Sequence record: OQ243221 | Direction: 5' to 3' (one strand) | Length of the DNA stretch: 46,604 bases | Source of the DNA: Escherichia phage vB_EcoS-UDF157lw | Part shown: one piece after another, positions 3,542-45,775 of the stretch | Numbering within the stretch: the first letter of the stretch is position 1 | Layout: each line of letters opens with the position of its first letter | Notes under the pieces: generated by a model | The model's database searches: none | Told to the model about the DNA's origin: nothing | Seen by the model: only the letters and a program-made list of their open reading frames with translations | Position numbers and translations under genes: made by a program

Positions 3542-3570
3542 TTGACGAAAATGTTAAAAGTGGTTAGTAT
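3542..3570 (+). promoter_or_regulatory. Candidate sigma70-type promoter (TTGACG, 17 nt, TAGTAT) upstream of the tRNA region
   Basis: Hexamers and 17-nt spacing read directly; lies in a 286-bp non-coding gap. Confidence 0.3.
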
Positions 3571-10529: not shown

Positions 10530-12074
10530 ATGGCTTTAGAGTTTATGGAAGTTGTAGCTAAGACTTATGGCGACCTGGAGAGGCTAGTAAAGGCAAAAAT
10601 GCTAGAAGGATGGATGCCATTTGATAGCTTAATTGACAATAGATTTACTATCGCAATTGTTATGGTTAAGGGTAGTGATGCGCAGCTTACCGACTTTAGG
10701 ATTCTCGGTGATAGCACTAGAGTTAAATTAATAAGCAAGGCTAACAAATTAATTGCTGATGACCCTGAGTGGGAGGTTTTCGGTCACCCTCAAATATTTG
10801 GCGCTGACGATTACATAGTTTCATTATCAAAAGGCTTTAAGGGAACTACTGGTAGGGATGGCATGGCTGGCCCGCAAGGACCGCAAGGACCGCGCGGCGA
10901 AGTTGGCCCAGAAGGTCCGCAGGGTCCAAGGGGTGACGATGGCGCTGATGGGGAAAAGGGTGAGCGTGGAGCAGTAGGCCCGCAAGGACCAATTGGCCCA
11001 CAGGGTATTCAGGGTCCACAGGGAGTTCAAGGGCCAGCTGGATTAAAGGGCGATAAAGGTGATAAGGGTGATGTTGGCCCACAGGGACCACAAGGATTAA
11101 AAGGTGATACTGGAGAGAAAGGCGACCCTGGAGAAGTTGGCCCTGCTGGTTTAACATTCCGTGGTCAGTGGGTTCCTGGCACTGGTTATACAAAAGACGA
11201 TACCGTAGTTTATAACGGATCAACTTACTTTGCGGTTAATGATATTGCAGCTGATGAGGAGCCAGGTGTATCACCTTTGTGGGTGGTTCTTGCCGCTCAA
11301 GGCACGAAAGGTGACAAGGGTGATAAAGGCGACCCTGGAGATATCGGACCTCAAGGGGAGAAGGGTGATACTGGACCTCAAGGTCCGAGAGGTATTCAGG
11401 GTCCGCAAGGTATTCAGGGGTTAACAGGTGAGCAAGGTCCGCAAGGTGAGCAGGGGCCGCAAGGGATTGTTGGGCCGACTGGACCGCAAGGGCCAAAAGG
11501 TGACACCGGACCTCAAGGTATTCAAGGGCCGCAAGGCATCAGGGGACTTACTGGGCCGATAGGACCACAGGGACCGCAGGGAGAGAAGGGCGAAAAGGGA
11601 GATAAAGGGGAAAAAGGCGAAACTGGTGCAACCGGACCACAGGGTCCAGCGGGTCAAAATAATACAAATAATCCAGTTTATACAACTCAACTTACCGTAT
11701 CTACAAGCTACTCAGCTATAGCCATACCAAATAACCCTGGTGTATCTTTTACAATCAGGAGGGTTGGTAATAACATTGAGTACTCTTTTACAGGCAACTC
11801 AATTCCAGGAAGGTATTTTGATGTTGAGGTTGTAAACTTTCCATCAGCTGACGTAGTTAAAAGATACCAGTCAAATCAGACAATTTCAGGTACAAATAGG
11901 TATGTTGTAGGTGATCCTGCTGGTTATACTGGCGGTGGATACAAAAGGATTCAATTCTCAGCTAGAGATTGGGGGGATAAAAACATTATAATGATTGATG
12001 TTTTTCACCTTCAGCGCCCAACTGATACTAGTTTTAGCATCGCAATTAGGATTGAGACATTCAAGCTGCCATAA
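10530..12074 (+). CDS. Collagen-like repeat protein with embedded carbohydrate-binding-like motif (514 aa); putative fibre/decoration
   Basis: Two blocks of uninterrupted Gly-X-Y triplets (about residues 110-205 and 265-385) separated by [26 protein letters not shown]...PLWVV, which resembles CBM5/12 chitin-binding-type motifs; distinct N- and C-terminal globular domains. Confidence 0.85.
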
Positions 12075-26993: not shown

Positions 26994-27017
26994 TTTGTAT
27001 TCCTTAGTAAGTATGTT

Positions 27018-27077
27018 TCGTTTCGATGGAGTAACTATAGCAAAGGCTTCTGCTGGAGTCTTTAGCAAATCGTGCTA
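27018..27077 (-). promoter_or_regulatory. Composite promoter-like element on minus strand: TAGCACgatTTGCTAAA, 23 nt, TGcTATAGT, leader CATCGAAACGA
   Basis: Reverse complement of 27018-27077 read directly; drives the lipoprotein operon. Confidence 0.5.
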
Positions 27078-27078
27078 T

Positions 27079-27270
27079 TTGATATACGCGTAACCGATGT
27101 AACTCGATGTATACAATCTCATACGCGGAAAATTGTATACGCTTTTTACGCGAAGATACGCATTAGTTACACTATAGAATCCTTATATAATAAGGGTTTA
27201 GAGTAATTATTATTATTACTATATTTGTTTGTATATAGTGTAACTACTCTCTATGGTTATGTTGGTGTGT
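27079..27270. repeat. AT-rich non-coding block homologous to 45-235, with GATACGC-type iterons and a (TTA)n tract
   Basis: Shared blocks such as atatacgcgta, atccttatata, ttattattattat, gtatatag, ggtt..gtttg with window positions 45-235, same orientation. Confidence 0.6.
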
Positions 27271-27435
27271 TTTTCTAAAAGACTATGTTTGACTTCCTGT
27301 TAAGGAGGAGATGCATATAGATATAGATAGGGTGCAATTGTGGTGGATACATTGGTTACAAGAGTTACAGCCAGTGCTGGTGCGGTTTAGAAGGTAGCGA
27401 ACCGTATTTATGTGCTTTTTACACCGATATACAGA

Positions 27436-27478
27436 TAGCACGAATAATCAAAACTGATTCTTCCTGATTGGTTATAGT
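27436..27478 (+). promoter_or_regulatory. Degenerate composite promoter-like element: TAGCACgaaTAATCAAAA, 22 nt, TATAGT, upstream of Rha-like gene
   Basis: Half-motif conserved (TAGCAC); TATAGT at 27473-27478. Confidence 0.4.
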
Positions 27479-27488
27479 GCACTCACCG

Positions 27489-27512
27489 GCAGCAGTGGTG
27501 CTGCTTTTGATG
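27489..27512 (+). promoter_or_regulatory. Leader hairpin plus U-run (attenuator-like) upstream of Rha-like gene
   Basis: GCAGCA-gtgg-TGCTGC followed by TTTTGATG, between the putative promoter and the start codon. Confidence 0.35.
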
Positions 27513-27578
27513 CAAAAAAATGCACCACAAAATCCGGGAGTGAAAATAATTCAACCCCAAAAACGAGAGATGATAGGT

Positions 27579-28289
27579 ATGAATCTGATTAATATTGATG
27601 AAAACGTAACCATGAGCAGCCTTGAGATTGCTGAATTGACCGGGAAGCGTCACGATAACGTAGTAAGGGATATTAGAGAAATGCTGAATGATAATGAGAT
27701 ATGCTCAGGATTTAGCCAATCTCACTCCTCAAATTTGAGGAGTGAAATTCAAAATGAATCTCGCGGCTCAAATGTGGACCGCCAGATTAAACACCCATTT
27801 GAATCTGAGTACAAAAACTCAAGAGGCCAAACTCAGCCATGCTTCAACTTACCATATCGTGAAACCATGATTTTGATGGTTGGTTACAACAGAAAGGTAG
27901 CCGCAAAGATTGTTGACCGCTGGCTACACCTTGAGCGGGAAAACAAGCTCCTTAAAGAGCACATGAAGAAGATGGTTTCACTTGATGAGGTTAAGGTTTA
28001 CAAAGTTGAGGCGGCATCAGCAAAGGCTGCACAGCACAGAGCTGAGGATAACTATTACGCAATTGAGAAGTTCATGTTTAAGAACATGGATAAGTGCGAA
28101 AATCCTGCAGAACTTGATGAGCAATACTTCGATGTTAAATTCGAGTCAAATCGTTACCATGACTCTCAAGAGTTGGTTTACAAGTACCAGGCTCAGCTTG
28201 AGGTTGCTTGCGAGAAGTTAAAGGCTAAAGATGATCTGATTGCCAATCTGGTGCATAAAGGCGAACCGCTTAAGCTTGGTAAAAAGTAA
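27579..28289 (+). CDS. Rha-family phage regulatory protein (237 aa from ATG 27579)
   Basis: N-terminal motif SSLEIAELTGKRHDNVVRDIREML typical of Rha/antirepressor-type proteins; coiled-coil C-terminus. Track start 27468 spans the leader hairpin and is rejected. Confidence 0.65.
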   Translation: MNLINIDENVTMSSLEIAELTGKRHDNVVRDIREMLNDNEICSGFSQSHSSNLRSEIQNESRGSNVDRQIKHPFESEYKNSRGQTQPCFNLPYRETMILMVGYNRKVAAKIVDRWLHLERENKLLKEHMKKMVSLDEVKVYKVEAASAKAAQHRAEDNYYAIEKFMFKNMDKCENPAELDEQYFDVKFESNRYHDSQELVYKYQAQLEVACEKLKAKDDLIANLVHKGEPLKLGKK

Positions 28290-28322
28290 TCAGTAAACAA
28301 AAACGCTTCCAGTACAGGAAAC

Positions 28323-28364
28323 AAAAATGTTGACTGTACGGTCAATAAAAATGTTGACCGTTAA
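28323..28364 (+). promoter_or_regulatory. Tandem AAAAATGTTGAC repeats with near-palindrome TTGACTGTACGGTCAA (operator-like)
   Basis: Read directly in the 150-bp intergenic region upstream of the 28442 gene. Confidence 0.35.
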
Positions 28365-28441
28365 CTAATAGGCAAAACCAATTGGATAAACTTAGCTACG
28401 GATGTCATAGTTAAACCACATAAACAGAGAGAGATAGAAAA

Positions 28442-28636
28442 ATGGCATACTTCATTATTCAAGAGCGAAATAACCCTATTTTCGGAACATGTTACTACTG
28501 TGTAGATGGCTCAGGTTACACAAGCAATAAATCAGAGGCAGCAAGATTTGAGACAAAGCAGGAAGCTATTGAATACGCCCACGTGACAGATGAGGAGCTT
28601 GGTTCAGTAATGAAGATTATTAAGGTGAAGGAATAA
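28442..28636 (+). CDS. Hypothetical protein (64 aa)
   Basis: ORF with RBS agagagag; upstream of the exonuclease. Confidence 0.5.
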   Translation: MAYFIIQERNNPIFGTCYYCVDGSGYTSNKSEAARFETKQEAIEYAHVTDEELGSVMKIIKVKE

Positions 28637-28639
28637 ATC

Positions 28640-29608
28640 ATGAGCTTCAAGGTTTACACTAGCGACGAGTTAACCAACGAAGCCTACCACAAGGAGTCAG
28701 ACCATGTGTCTGGCTCTGGTCTGGCTCACATCTTCTCAACTTGCCCCGCTGCTTATAAGTTTGCAGAGCATGATGATAGCAATAAGGCGTTAAAGTTCGG
28801 TACATTAGCCCACACGGTTATTCTTGAAAACTATGTATTCGATGCGACTTACTATCGCCAGCCAGCGCAAGAAGAGTTTGAGGATCTGATTACTAGCAAG
28901 ACTGCTTTGGCAACTCGATTGAAGTCGATGGGTATTGCTGGAACATCTGGTAAGGATTATCCAGAATTAATGGAGATTCTGGCGCTGAGCGGTGAATCAC
29001 TTAACGTATGGTGGGATATTCAGCGCTCTAGCGAGGTTAAAGCGAACGGTCGCGAGATTGTATCAGCTAAAGACTTTGACACAGTACATGCGATGCGAGA
29101 GGTGCTGTGCGGCATTCCTGCATACAATGCGATAGTGAACAGTAAAACCGCTCAGCGAGAGTTATCAATCTTCGGTGAGATTAACGAGTGCGGCGTTAAG
29201 GTTCGTCTTGACCATGTCGATGTCGTTGATGATGTAGTTTATATCCGTGACTACAAGACGACTAGCGACGCATCTCCATCTGGATTTGGGAGATTGGCCT
29301 TCAAGCATGGTTACTTGCTAAAAATGGCGCTTCAGCATGATTTGTTTGTTCGCGCCTTTAATGAGAAGCGTCGAGTTGTTGTTCAGCTTCTTTGCCAGGA
29401 AAAGAAAAGCCCATTCCTTCCAATGTGCTACACGATAACAAAAGAGCACTTAAAGGTTGGTAGATTGCAATACATGAGCGCCCTATCCACATACAAGCAA
29501 TGCAAGAAACTTGATATTTGGCCTGGTTACGGATTTGGCGAAACAGAGATGGAACTGCAAGTTCCTGAGTATGAGATGAAGAAGTACGAAGATAGCACGA
29601 ATAGCTAA
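28640..29608 (+). CDS. Recombination exonuclease, PD-(D/E)XK family (RecE/YqaJ/lambda-Exo-like, 322 aa)
   Basis: Motif LDHVDVVDDVVYIRDYKTT (D..D..K-type nuclease core); adjacent to an Erf-family annealase. Confidence 0.65.
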   Translation: MSFKVYTSDELTNEAYHKESDHVSGSGLAHIFSTCPAAYKFAEHDDSNKALKFGTLAHTVILENYVFDATYYRQPAQEEFEDLITSKTALATRLKSMGIAGTSGKDYPELMEILALSGESLNVWWDIQRSSEVKANGREIVSAKDFDTVHAMREVLCGIPAYNAIVNSKTAQRELSIFGEINECGVKVRLDHVDVVDDVVYIRDYKTTSDASPSGFGRLAFKHGYLLKMALQHDLFVRAFNEKRRVVVQLLCQEKKSPFLPMCYTITKEHLKVGRLQYMSALSTYKQCKKLDIWPGYGFGETEMELQVPEYEMKKYEDSTNS

Positions 29609-29635
29609 AACGGTATTAAATCGATGGGGTATAGT
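29593..29635 (+). promoter_or_regulatory. Composite promoter-like element variant: TAGCACgaaTAGCTAAA, 20-22 nt, TATAGT, leader CATCGACAACAAAGAGAG
   Basis: Overlaps the exonuclease stop; hairpin CGATGGGGTA-TAG-TTACCTCATCG spans the -10. Confidence 0.45.
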
Positions 29636-29664
29636 TACCTCATCGACAACAAAGAGAGATAGAA

Positions 29665-30312
29665 ATGAAGACTTCAGAGAGTAACAAAACAGTTTTACAG
29701 GCACTATTTAAAGCTCGCACAGGATTTGCGAAGGCAGCAAGAGACAAGCAGAACAGTCACCTAAAGAATAGATACGCAACACTTGATTCCATGCTGGAGG
29801 CTGTAATCCCAGCACTTGATGATAACGACTTAATGATTATGCAGAGCATGTTAGAAACATCAACTGCTGACAATCTTAACGTAGAGACGACTCTCTATCA
29901 CGTTTCTGGCGAGTGGGTTAGCTTCTTCATGATTATGCCAATCGTTAAGAAAGACCCGCAAGGAGTAGGATCTGCATTTACATACGCTCGGCGTTACTCA
30001 CTAGCGGCGGCTTTGGGAATTAGTCAGTCTGACGATGATGCGCAGATGGCAGTTAAGAGCGTCAAGGACTGGAAGCGCGATATTGAGAAGGCAGAAACTC
30101 GAGAAGAGCTTATCGAAATCTACAAATCATGCAAATCACAAGCTGACACGGCAACGTGGGGTATAGTAGAGAAAGCGATAATAGATAAACAAGCAGAGAT
30201 CAAAATGGCTTCCGCAAGTGGCTTCAACCCAGCTAAGCCAAAGGAAGTTGCTAAAAAAGTTGCAAACGCAACTAATGAAGTAGTAGAATCACAATCAATC
30301 GAGCAGTTCTAA
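29665..30312 (+). CDS. erf: Erf-family single-strand annealing protein (215 aa)
   Basis: Conserved Erf-like stretch LYHVSGEW...FTYARRYSLAAALGISQSDDD; paired with the exonuclease. Confidence 0.8.
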   Translation: MKTSESNKTVLQALFKARTGFAKAARDKQNSHLKNRYATLDSMLEAVIPALDDNDLMIMQSMLETSTADNLNVETTLYHVSGEWVSFFMIMPIVKKDPQGVGSAFTYARRYSLAAALGISQSDDDAQMAVKSVKDWKRDIEKAETREELIEIYKSCKSQADTATWGIVEKAIIDKQAEIKMASASGFNPAKPKEVAKKVANATNEVVESQSIEQF

Positions 30313-30359
30313 ACTAAACGGGGCTTCGGCCCCAAAATCAAACGAGAAGAGAATATAAA

Positions 30360-30782
30360 ATGCATACTTTAACAGGCGTAATTCGTAAGGCTCCTTTCAC
30401 TAAAGATGGTCAGAACGCCAAGGGTAACTGGAAGATGTACGCTATCGAAATGAGCGAATCTTATAAAACACGAGATGGAGAGCGTAAGTATAGTAATTAT
30501 CGAGCTACCTTCTTTGCTAGCGAGGCGCAAATTAGCTGGTATGACGAAGCATTTCAGGAAGGAAAAGTTATCTCTGTGAGCGGCGATTCATTAGCGGTTA
30601 ATGAGCGCGAACATAATGGCAAGACATATATTACGCTTGAGTTGCAGAATCCTCGATTGATGTTTAGTCAGCGAGGAGGTGAATCAGAACAGCAGCAGCA
30701 GCGACAACAAGCTCAACAGCAACAGAGACAGCAGCCGCAGCAACAAAGCCGATTTAGTGATGAAGATGATATTCCGTTTTAA
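30360..30782 (+). CDS. ssb: Single-stranded DNA-binding protein (140 aa)
   Basis: OB-fold-like N-terminal region, Gln-rich linker, acidic tail ending DEDDIPF. Confidence 0.85.
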   Translation: MHTLTGVIRKAPFTKDGQNAKGNWKMYAIEMSESYKTRDGERKYSNYRATFFASEAQISWYDEAFQEGKVISVSGDSLAVNEREHNGKTYITLELQNPRLMFSQRGGESEQQQQRQQAQQQQRQQPQQQSRFSDEDDIPF

Positions 30783-44582: not shown

Positions 44583-44612
44583 TTTGTTCACCTTAGTTTT
44601 TGTCTTCTTGAT

Positions 44613-44663
44613 GGAAACAAATATACCCGCCGAAGCGGGTACTGTCATTAGCAAAAAGTGCTA
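44613..44663 (-). promoter_or_regulatory. Overlapping terminator and promoter-like element (minus): TAGCACtttttGCTAA, hairpin ACCCGC-ttcg-GCGGGT, TATATT
   Basis: The hairpin and U-rich tract sit inside the spacer between the palindrome and the -10-like hexamer. Confidence 0.45.
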
Positions 44664-44870
44664 TTTTTTTAAGTGCCCTGGCGCATAGCATTTTCCATCC
44701 TTCTTATGCAAAACCCACCCAGCATATTTAAGTTGCCTTGCACAATCAGAAAAGTTCTCGCCCGCAGCGTCCGTATAGTGTGGCATAAAATAAGAACCAT
44801 CATCATTTGACTCAGTTGAGCACTTCTTACAGTCGCAATAAACAGCGATGGAATAACCTGAAACAATCAT
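44661..44870 (-). CDS. Hypothetical Cys-rich small protein (69 aa)
   Basis: CDCKKC ... C ... C pattern suggests a zinc-binding protein. Confidence 0.45.
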   Translation of the reverse strand: MIVSGYSIAVYCDCKKCSTESNDDGSYFMPHYTDAAGENFSDCARQLKYAGWVLHKKDGKCYAPGHLKK

Positions 44871-45245: not shown

Positions 45246-45548
45246 TTAGTTAGCGTTATGACGTTCGATATAGTCGCGGATTGTTTCGCCTACGCTTTTA
45301 GCGGCACCAAAAGTGCCCTTTGCGTGGCGTGAATCGCGGTACGTCTGGAAGAATTTACGAGCGATGTTTGCGAACATTGAACCAGTCACGCGAGCATCAC
45401 CGAAATTTGTTTCGATAGCGTTGCTAATGCCATCCTTGAACTCATTTTCAGTCATGAACATCTCTGCCATGCCAGCAGTCTCGAAAAGGTTAGCTAATTC
45501 ATTCATGTTGTTATGGTCTTCGGCTGTAAACAGGTTCATGTTAATCAT
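45246..45548 (-). CDS. Hypothetical acidic protein (100 aa)
   Basis: ORF in track; preceded on the minus strand by promoter element and CATCGAAACGAAAC leader. Confidence 0.5.
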   Translation of the reverse strand: MINMNLFTAEDHNNMNELANLFETAGMAEMFMTENEFKDGISNAIETNFGDARVTGSMFANIARKFFQTYRDSRHAKGTFGAAKSVGETIRDYIERHNAN

Positions 45549-45581
45549 CTTCGTGATTCCTTAGTTTCGTTTCGATGAGAT

Positions 45582-45625
45582 GAATATACAATAAAAGCCC
45601 CGAAGGGCTTTAGCAATTCGTGCTA
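45582..45625 (-). promoter_or_regulatory. Composite promoter-like element (minus): TAGCACgaaTTGCTAAA, hairpin AGCCC-ttc-GGGGCT, TGTATATT
   Basis: Reverse complement read directly; the TAG of the motif is the stop codon of the upstream 50-aa ORF. Confidence 0.5.
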
Positions 45626-45775
45626 TTTCTTTGCTGCTTTTGCAATTGCCTTCTGGACGATGTTGAAGCTCTCAATCAAATCTTCTTTGAAGTAGTCACC
45701 AACAGGCCAACCCTTACCGCTGTACTTTGCTATAGTTTCTAGATCGTAATAGTTCAAATCAGATGGTTTAAGCAT
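45623..45775 (-). CDS. Small hypothetical protein (50 aa)
   Basis: Hand-translated MLKPSDLNYYDLETIAKYSGKGWPVGDYFKEDLIESFNIVQKAIAKAAKK; start abuts the upstream stop (TAAATG). Confidence 0.35.
   Translation of the reverse strand: MLKPSDLNYYDLETIAKYSGKGWPVGDYFKEDLIESFNIVQKAIAKAAKK

What the first reader, a model, noticed from the sequence alone, without database searches (positions are those of the whole stretch)
28323..28364. Tandem AAAAATGTTGAC repeats with a near-palindromic TTGACTGTACGGTCAA site
The 150-bp gap after the Rha-like gene contains two direct repeats of AAAAATGTTGAC(T/C)GT, and the first copy forms a 16-bp near-palindrome, which looks like an operator. A related AAAATGTTAA string occurs at 3548-3557 in the candidate tRNA promoter. 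This may be a binding site for a phage or host repressor, distinct from the TAGCAC palindrome.
Basis: seen in the sequence. Interest (0 to 1): 0.4.

Follow-up and report, generated by a model that had tools for sequence, protein, structure and literature searches.

The report
Orphaned promoter-half tandem repeat
The repeats are real: three 24-base tandem copies between two genes of a virulent T1-like coliphage, most likely the stranded front half of a promoter that a related phage still uses for a different gene cassette, and not a working repressor site.

Summary
The sequence is as described, but it is larger: a 24-bp unit repeated about three times (28290-28362). It fills the space between the rha stop codon and a near-invariant promoter/leader block (28363-41) in front of the 64-aa gene and the exonuclease gene. 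The window is a virulent T1-like phage (Rogunavirus, 99% identical to AKS96/AHP42). The array occurs once per genome. It is absent from most close relatives, where rha or other cassettes abut the conserved block directly. It has no relative in E. coli genomes or Rfam. Thirty-eight bases (28323-28360) are identical to a two-unit array in phage e4/1c. There the proximal TTGACC lies 17 bp upstream of TAAATT, in front of a two-gene cassette that replaces rha. A metagenomic relative has a diverged two-unit array with TTGACC-N17-TATCTT at the same place. In the window no -10 follows. Best reading (about 0.45): an orphaned upstream half (A-tract, -35 and possible regulator sites) of that cassette promoter, left by cassette exchange and probably inert. 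Rivals: a live regulatory site for the downstream promoter, or hairpins in the rha 3' UTR. The 3548 string is a chance match. Interest is low.

The parts
27579..28289 (+). rha (Phage_pRha family, 236 aa). Its last ~10 codons (…LKLGKK*) plus the trailer form one mosaic piece shared only with the AKS96 group and, in diverged form, Sd1.
   Evidence: Pfam PF09669 E=2.6e-19; PHROG 8235; AKS96 annotation gp27; allele alignment.
28290..28313 (+). Unit 1 of the 24-bp array, TCAGTAAACAAAAACGCTTCCAGT. This is the diverged, Sd1-type trailer unit.
   Evidence: (family D4). 97% identical to Sd1 over 28280-28319, while the adjacent rha coding sequence is 55-70% identical.
28314..28337 (+). Unit 2, ACAGGAAACAAAAATGTTGACTGT. 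It is a chimera: the left arm is Sd1-type and the right part (from 28323) is e4/1c-type. It contains the -35-like TTGACT (28330-28335).
28338..28361 (+). Unit 3, ACGGTCAA-TAAAAATG-TTGACCGT. It is a perfect 8/8 palindrome and contains the -35-like TTGACC (28354-28359). No -10 lies 15-19 bp downstream.
   Evidence: No promoter-like site in the gap.
28323..28360 (+). 38 bp that are 100% identical to the e4/1c array (NC_024210 23769-23806), with unrelated flanks on both sides.
   Evidence: blastn-short 38/38.
28330..28345 (.). It is the junction between units 2 and 3.
28363..28441 (+). Near-invariant promoter/leader block ('P28') in front of the 64-aa gene. It has the -35-like TGGATA (28383-28388), TG (28403-4), the -10-like CATAGT (28406-28411), a leader and a GAGAGAGA ribosome-binding site. 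It is the fixed right-hand boundary of a cassette-exchange hot spot.
   Evidence: Invariant columns in A1. The same block follows six other upstream contexts. It is related to the DR-promoter/leader family (A2). The Rogue1 version, TTGATA-N17-(TG)CATAGT, is flagged by the scan.
28442..28636 (+). 64-aa gene of unknown function (PHROG 5247), the first gene downstream.
28640..29608 (+). Exonuclease VIII-like gene (DUF3799), followed by erf and ssb.

Best explanation
The array is the orphaned upstream half of a host-RNA-polymerase (sigma-70-type) promoter module, left at a cassette-exchange junction.

In phage e4/1c and in a metagenomic T1-like phage, two tandem 24-bp units sit in front of a two-gene cassette (e29-e30) that occupies the place of rha. 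In both, the TTGACC of the promoter-proximal unit is the -35 hexamer. The A5 (or T5) tract just upstream of it lies where an UP-like contact would be. A -10 hexamer follows 17 bp downstream, and then comes the leader typical of this phage's genes.

The distal unit is kept in both phages, and the units look homogenised within each phage. The units may therefore also be binding sites for a regulator, possibly one encoded by the cassette. This step is inference.

In the window, 1.6 of these units are fused to an Sd1-type rha trailer, apparently within the shared AAAAATGTT. The homology stops right after TTGACCG, so the -10, the leader and the cassette are all missing.

Here the array is therefore most likely transcriptionally silent. 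It is simply read through as the rha 3' untranslated region. It is dispensable for the conserved promoter block immediately downstream. Shown: the homology, the positions, and the absence of a -10. Inferred: promoter activity in the relatives, and inertness here.
For: (1) The 38/38 identity to e4/1c has unrelated flanks.

(2) e4/1c has TTGACC-N17-TAAATT followed by the leader TAGCTCATCGATACGAG. The unit occupies exactly the 38 nt upstream of the -10, the position taken by the DR element in this phage's other promoter-like regions.

(3) There is independent, diverged confirmation. A contig from run SRR11852057 (e29 homolog 74% aa, DNA about 72%) carries two 24-bp units, CGGTCGTTGTTTTTGTTGGTTGTA and CGGTCGTTGTTTTTGTTGACCAAC. 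These are followed by TTGACC-N17-(TG)TATCTT and the leader CTCATCGAAACGAG.

(4) The window has no -10 at 15-19 bp after either TTGAC hexamer, and the scan finds no promoter-like site in the gap.

(5) The array is dispensable. Rogue1, AHS24, C119, Opt-719, phiEB49, Sf12 and five further contigs carry the same downstream block and genes without it.

(6) At least seven different upstream contexts end at the same boundary, (A)ATAGGCAAAACC. This marks the site as a recombination hot spot.

(7) The motif occurs once per genome, has no co-occurring gene, and has no host or Rfam counterpart.
Against: No transcription start site has been mapped in any of these phages, so the promoter assignment rests on consensus matches and positional homology.

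Unit 1 and the start of unit 2 are 97% identical between the window and Sd1, while the neighbouring rha coding sequence is 55-70% identical. This could mean constraint, and hence function, rather than a relic, though a recent recombination tract explains it equally well.

The perfect 8/8 palindrome of unit 3 is more than a -35/UP module needs.

The direction of transfer is not resolved: either the window lost a cassette, or e4/1c borrowed the array.

Only four or five independent sequences exist.
Confidence: 0.45

Rival explanations
1. A live regulator-binding site. A dimeric phage or host DNA-binding protein would bind the dyad-symmetric units: either TTGAC-N6-GTCAA, whose half-site centres are about 11 bp apart, or ACGGTCAA-N8-TTGACCGT. 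From about -57 to -130 it would modulate the conserved promoter block in front of gp28-exo-erf-ssb, or act as a roadblock to readthrough from rha.
For: The geometry fits: dyad symmetry, and 24-bp spacing like the lambda OR sites (my own knowledge). In e4/1c and L038 a two-unit array is kept across about 28% DNA divergence, with units more alike within a phage than between phages. This fits co-evolution with a binding protein. The trailer is 97% conserved between the window and Sd1. The array abuts a conserved promoter-like block.
Against: There is one locus per genome. No gene co-occurs with the motif. Rha is not the partner: C119 has a 79%-identical Rha and no array, and e4/1c has the array and no Rha. 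The candidate partners e29 and e30 are absent from the window, and they have no recognisable DNA-binding domain (the structure model is unusable, pLDDT 40). Palindromy is lost in L038, where the arms shrink to GGTC/GACC. Most relatives run the same downstream block without the array. There is no match in E. coli genomes. The phage is virulent.
Confidence: 0.18
2. An RNA element. Transcribed as the 3' end of the rha message, the array would fold into two adjacent hairpins with AAAA loops. These would protect the mRNA from 3' exonucleases, or weakly pause or insulate transcription before the next promoter.
For: The predicted + strand fold has two hairpins, at about 28312-28339 and 28340-28361, with dG -22.3 kcal/mol and z = -4.55 against shuffles. 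e4/1c gives z = -5.5. The position, directly after a stop codon, is typical for such elements.
Against: No U-tract follows on the + strand, so this is not a canonical intrinsic terminator. Neither AKS96's annotators nor the scan call a terminator there. Low z-scores are expected for any palindromic DNA. The Sd1 version folds weakly (-8.9 kcal/mol, z -2.0), and the L038 units are not hairpins, so the structure is not conserved. In e4/1c the hairpins lie upstream of the predicted start site. There is no Rfam match.
Confidence: 0.17
3. A neutral local duplication. The array would have arisen in place by replication slippage of a 24-bp trailer unit with no promoter ancestry, and e4/1c would have acquired its copy from an AKS96-like phage.
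For: Copy number varies: 0, 2 or 3 units among relatives. The Sd1 units lack TTGAC. The array is dispensable.
Against: The diverged L038 array sits at the same promoter position as in e4/1c, with TTGACC again exactly 17 bp from a -10. This argues that the promoter context is old, not a recent loan. Unit 2 of the window is a chimera of two unit types, which slippage alone does not produce.
Confidence: 0.12
4. A translated mini-ORF. AGGA-N7-ATG (28327) would encode MLTVRSIKMLTVN*, with its stop at 28366-28368, and act as a leader peptide.
For: There is a good Shine-Dalgarno sequence and spacing in the window. Sd1 has an even better one, AGGAGG-N5-ATG, in front of MFPVKQ*.
Against: The peptides are unrelated in sequence and length. 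e4/1c and L038 have no ribosome-binding site there. The stop lies 73 nt before the next start codon, so there is no coupling. The SD-like string is simply a repeat arm.
Confidence: 0.03

Closest known systems
Sigma-70 promoter upstream half: -35 hexamer plus an A/T-tract UP-like element (for example rrnB P1 and T5 early promoters; my own knowledge, also cited in PMC11447400)
   Same: Each unit carries TTGAC(C/T), which matches 5 of 6 of TTGACA, directly preceded by AAAAATG. In e4/1c and L038 the proximal TTGACC lies 17 bp from a -10-like hexamer.
   Different: The window has no -10. The module is tandemly duplicated and palindromic, which promoters do not need. UP function is only a resemblance: L038 has T5 where e4/1c has A5.
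Tandem dyad-symmetric phage operators overlapping a promoter (lambda OR1-OR3, centre-to-centre 23-24 bp; my own knowledge)
   Same: The units are dyad-symmetric with a 24-bp period. In e4/1c the proximal unit overlaps the -35.
   Different: There is no repressor gene, no lysogeny module and no promoter overlap in this window. Symmetry is not conserved in L038.
The 21-nt intergenic direct repeat of T1-like phages, aaATAGCACnnnTTGnTAAAA (TLS paper, PMC11447400; function still unknown)
   Same: It is also an intergenic element placed about 38 nt upstream of a -10-like hexamer. The e4/1c unit occupies the same slot in the common promoter/leader architecture.
   Different: The sequence is different. 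The DR has 17-18 dispersed copies in the window, whereas the 24-bp array has one locus and is tandem.
Module-boundary ('linker') sequences at mosaic junctions of lambdoid phages (my own knowledge)
   Same: The array lies exactly at a junction where at least seven alternative upstream cassettes meet one conserved block. The window's unit 2 looks like a crossover product.
   Different: The conserved boundary is the block at 28363-28441, not the array. Nothing shows that the array itself promotes recombination.

Membership tests
Sigma-70 promoter | -35-like hexamer (TTGACA) | tested here: met
   TTGACT at 28330 and TTGACC at 28354.
Sigma-70 promoter | -10-like hexamer (TAnnnT) 16-18 bp downstream of the -35 | tested here: not met
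   No promoter-like site in 28290-28441 from these hexamers. The hexamers at spacers of 15-19 are ATGTTG…TGACCG and AAACCA…CAATTG. The feature is met in e4/1c (TAAATT) and L038 (TATCTT).
Sigma-70 promoter | Mapped transcription start | not testable with these tools
   The searches run for start-site or transcriptome data on T1-like phages returned nothing relevant.
Phage repressor operator | Dyad symmetry with half-sites about one helical turn apart, in two or more copies | tested here: met
   TTGAC-N6-GTCAA at 28330-28345; ACGGTCAA-N8-TTGACCGT at 28338-28361.
Phage repressor operator | Overlaps the core of the promoter it controls | tested here: not met
   The array ends 20 bp upstream of the -35-like hexamer of the conserved block and has no promoter of its own.
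Phage repressor operator | A cognate DNA-binding protein encoded by the phage that co-occurs with the site | tested here: not met
   No window ORF is shared with e4/1c and AKS96 but absent from Rogue1. Rha and the array occur independently.
Phage repressor operator | Protein binding | not testable with these tools
   Needs a gel shift or footprint.
Intrinsic (rho-independent) terminator | Stable stem-loop | tested here: met
   An 8-9 bp stem at 28339-28362 and a second hairpin at 28312-28339.
Intrinsic (rho-independent) terminator | U-tract directly 3' of the stem on the transcribed strand | tested here: not met
   The stem is followed by UUAACUAAUAGG. The scan finds none on the + strand, only a weak one on the - strand at 28323-28304.
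T1-like 21-nt DR element (ATAGCACnnnTTGnTAAAA) | Match to the consensus | tested here: not met
   There are 18 matches in the window and none in 28290-28362.
Replication-origin iterons | Three or more direct repeats of about 20 bp | tested here: met
   24 bp x 2.8 copies.
Replication-origin iterons | Conserved in all close relatives, as an essential cis site must be | tested here: not met
   Absent from Rogue1, AHS24, C119, Opt-719, phiEB49, Sf12 and others.
Known RNA family (Rfam 15) | Covariance-model match | tested here: not met
   No match at E<=1 in 27000-29000.

The most novel reading that the evidence does not exclude
The 24-bp units would be operators of a so-far unrecognised regulator encoded by the e29-e30 cassette. 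These proteins have no Pfam, PHROG or PDB relatives and only two known members. The orphan copy kept by AKS96-type phages would be functional in trans. It could act as a decoy or cross-talk site during mixed infection with cassette-carrying relatives. Alternatively it could be the homology patch that lets the cassette be recaptured by the phage's own exo/Erf recombination system, which is encoded immediately downstream.
Probability: 0.07. Interest if true: 0.5.

Novelty: new member of a known kind. Interest (0 to 1): 0.2.

Why it matters
By itself it matters little. It is a strain-variable, dispensable 73-bp spacer in a well-sampled group of T1-like phages.

Its value is as a marker. It pins down a cassette-exchange hot spot between the lipoprotein/cor gene and the gp28-exo-erf-ssb operon. 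It shows that a promoter module can be split by such an exchange. It also points to a small autonomous cassette, with its own promoter and the genes e29-e30, whose regulation could be tested.

It sets the array apart from the dispersed ATAGCAC repeat. The function of that repeat is still an open question for T1-like phages (PMC11447400).

Tried and rejected
- Dispersed regulon site: rejected. The motif and its variants occur once per genome in the window, AKS96, e4/1c and Sd1.
- Host origin or host operator: no hit for the 80-bp segment in 5,426 E. coli genomes. The 19-mer GGTCAATAAAAATGTTGAC gives only 8 and 6 scattered hits in unrelated MAGs and metagenomes (my estimate is about 4 by chance in genome contigs) and only e4/1c in IMG/VR.
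- Fishing metagenomes with the conserved block found nothing. IMG/VR gave only known phages.
- Cognate protein by presence/absence profile: none.
- e29 and e30 as regulators: no Pfam, PHROG or PDB hit. The AlphaFold model has pLDDT 40.5 and is unusable, so no fold search was run. e30 against Rha shows no similarity.
- Relic of a longer Rha C-terminus: considered because the frame stays open after the stop codon in both the window and Sd1. Rejected because the Rha proteins end at homologous positions in all alleles.
- Replication origin, intrinsic terminator, known RNA family, and the T1-like DR element: each fails a defining feature (see the membership table).
- Link to 3548-3557: chance. A5-NN-TTGAC is not a recurrent promoter feature in this phage.
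- Literature: the AKS96/AHP42 paper (PMC4070988) and the record annotations do not mention the array. The searches run for start-site data on T1-like phages returned nothing relevant.

Full report
**What the window is**

The region 27000-30400 is 99% identical to Escherichia phages vB_EcoS_AKS96 and AHP42. It is 80-95% identical to other Rogunavirus members of the Drexlerviridae, the T1-like phages. These are virulent phages. The fully annotated AKS96 record lists no integrase or immunity module (PMC4070988).

The finding lies in the 152-bp gap between two genes. Upstream is rha (27579-28289, Pfam Phage_pRha). Downstream is a 64-aa gene (28442-28636), followed by exonuclease VIII-like, erf and ssb genes.

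**The observation**

The object is larger, though. Tandem Repeats Finder reports a 24-bp period with 2.8 copies at 28291-28358 and score 73, the best in the window. A third, diverged copy, AAAAACGCTTCCAGT, sits at 28299.

Read in the register 8+8+8, the units are:

| Unit | Sequence |
|---|---|
| 1 | TCAGTAAA-CAAAAACG-CTTCCAGT |
| 2 | ACAGGAAA-CAAAAATG-TTGACTGT |
| 3 | ACGGTCAA-TAAAAATG-TTGACCGT |

Unit 3 is a perfect palindrome and unit 2 matches 6 of 8.

- Exact direct repeats of at least 12 nt at short range are rare: 4 in the window, 3 of them in a coding collagen-like repeat, against 0.2 in shuffles.
- A single 8-bp inverted repeat is not rare: 29 observed against 9 in shuffles.
- The 'related' string at 3548 is a chance match. 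It lies in the spacer of another promoter-like site.

**Distribution**

The motif occurs once per genome. The identical array is present only in AKS96, AHP42 and BECP10.

Rogue1, AHS24, C119 and Opt-719 lack all ~75 bp. In them the rha stop codon abuts TAGGCAAAACC, and the gap is 73 bp. Sd1 has two units with GTTTCCAGT in place of GTTGACYGT.

Nothing similar exists in 5,426 E. coli genomes or in Rfam. The 19-mer gives only scattered hits in unrelated MAGs and metagenomes, about what I estimate chance would give.

**What lies downstream**

The 78 bp at 28363-28441 are almost invariant in every relative, whatever lies upstream. The upstream contexts seen are:

- several rha alleles;
- the e4/1c two-gene cassette;
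- phiEB49 gp30;
- a different gene in Sf12;
- other two-gene cassettes;
- rha plus a 71-aa gene;
- no cassette at all.

This block aligns with the phage's common promoter-like/leader architecture. That architecture has 17-18 copies of the known T1-like repeat ATAGCACnnnTTGnTAAAA (PMC11447400), each followed by TATAGT and a TCATCGAAACGA leader. In the block, TGGATA (TTGATA in Rogue1) lies 17 bp from TG-n-CATAGT. The scan flags the Rogue1 version.

The gap therefore already holds a conserved promoter candidate. The array sits just upstream of it, at about -57 to -130, and is clearly dispensable for it.

**The key relative**

Thirty-eight bases (28323-28360) are 100% identical to e4/1c, with unrelated flanks. 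There, two full units (GCGGTCAATAAAAATGTTGACTGT and ACGGTCAATAAAAATGTTGACCGA) lie about 57 bp upstream of e41c_0029. That gene is the first of two genes that replace rha.

The proximal TTGACC is 17 bp from TAAATT, which is followed by a family-type leader. The unit occupies exactly the 38-nt slot that the ATAGCAC repeat fills elsewhere.

The only other homolog of e29 (74% aa) lies on a T1-like contig from run SRR11852057. Upstream of it are again two 24-bp units, CGGTCGTTGTTTTTGTTGGTTGTA and CGGTCGTTGTTTTTGTTGACCAAC. These are followed by TTGACC-N17-(TG)TATCTT and CTCATCGAAACGAG.

Across about 28% DNA divergence, these features are kept:

- the tandem pair of units;
- the 24-bp period;
- CGGTC at the start of each unit;
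- TGTACGGTC at the unit junction;
- a homopolymer tract, A5 or T5;
- a proximal TTGACC at -35.

The palindromy is not kept. Units are more alike within a phage than between phages.

**Interpretation**

In its intact form the array is the upstream half of a cassette promoter, and possibly also holds sites for a regulator.

In the window the homology ends one base after TTGACCG. No -10 follows either TTGAC hexamer, and the cassette is absent.

Unit 1 and the left arm of unit 2 match the Sd1 trailer (97% over 28280-28319). The rest matches e4/1c. The switch falls in AAAAATGTT, which both share.

The simplest reading is a crossover or deletion at this hot spot that stranded the promoter's front half. 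I rate this at about 0.45.

**Rivals**

- *A live regulator site (0.18).* It is favoured by the geometry and by the high window-Sd1 identity of the trailer. It is weakened by the lack of any partner protein, the single locus, the absence from relatives and the lack of promoter overlap. Rha is not the partner.
- *An RNA hairpin element of the rha 3' UTR (0.17).* It folds well. However, it lacks a U-tract, and the structure is not conserved in Sd1 or in the SRR11852057 contig.
- *Pure slippage (0.12) and a mini-ORF (0.03).* Both are less likely.

**What failed**

e29 and e30 have no detectable family, and the structure model was unusable. The idea that they bind the units therefore stays speculative.

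**Verdict**

This is a real but ordinary feature: a new example of a promoter/operator-like tandem repeat. Here it is probably a recombination relic. Interest is low.

Noticed in passing
window 1580, 2423, 4660, 19900, 27060(-), 27435, 29592, 35071, 37467, 38152, 38838, 40126, 40390, 44448(-), 44646(-), 45608(-), 46443(-): There are 17-18 copies of the T1-like 21-nt repeat ATAGCACnnnTTGnTAAAA (chance expectation 2.3), all pointing in the direction of the next gene. Each is followed about 19 nt later by TATAGT/TATATT and a TCATCGAAACGA-type leader. TTGCTA therefore lies about 22 bp from the -10, too far for a normal -35. This is the element whose function the TLS paper (PMC11447400) calls an open question.
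   Followed up: partly
window 27080-28441 and loci L003, L004, L007, L018, L019, L038, L040, L042, L047, L049: This is a cassette-exchange hot spot between the lipoprotein/cor gene and the 64-aa gene. At least seven alternative contents occur: several rha alleles, three different two-gene cassettes, rha plus a 71-aa gene, single unrelated genes, or nothing. All end at the same boundary, (A)ATAGGCAAAACC.
   Followed up: partly
window 28316-28368; L005 2616-2648: An SD-like AGGA-N7-ATG opens a 13-codon ORF (MLTVRSIKMLTVN*) inside the array. Sd1 has AGGAGG-N5-ATG with a 6-codon ORF at the same place. The peptides are unrelated, so this is probably a by-product of the repeat arms.
   Followed up: partly
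window 28323-28304 (- strand): A terminator-like hairpin, TGTTTCC-TGTACT-GGAAGCG followed by TTTTTGTTTA, on the strand opposite to all neighbouring genes. It is made by the unit 1/unit 2 junction.
   Followed up: no
window 27680-27780: The window's Rha carries a hypervariable insertion of about 20-26 aa within the pRha domain, relative to Sd1 and Rogue1. The insertion contains a 32-bp near-perfect palindrome: arms 27718-27733 and 27734-27749, 94% complementary, no spacer.
   Followed up: no
window 10872-11622: A run of 9- and 18-bp tandem repeats inside a coding region. I read it as collagen-like Gly-X-Y triplets by eye and did not test this. The segment is shared with e4/1c but has no tblastn match in Rogue1.
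   Followed up: no
window 45548-45626(-) and 44590-44664(-): In some DR promoter-like regions the spacer between the ATAGCAC repeat and the -10 holds a GC-rich hairpin with a T-run, for example GCCCTTCGGGGCTTTT. A terminator and the next promoter therefore overlap.
   Followed up: no
window 3542-3570: TTGACG-N17-TAGTAT is a good sigma-70-like site.
   Followed up: partly
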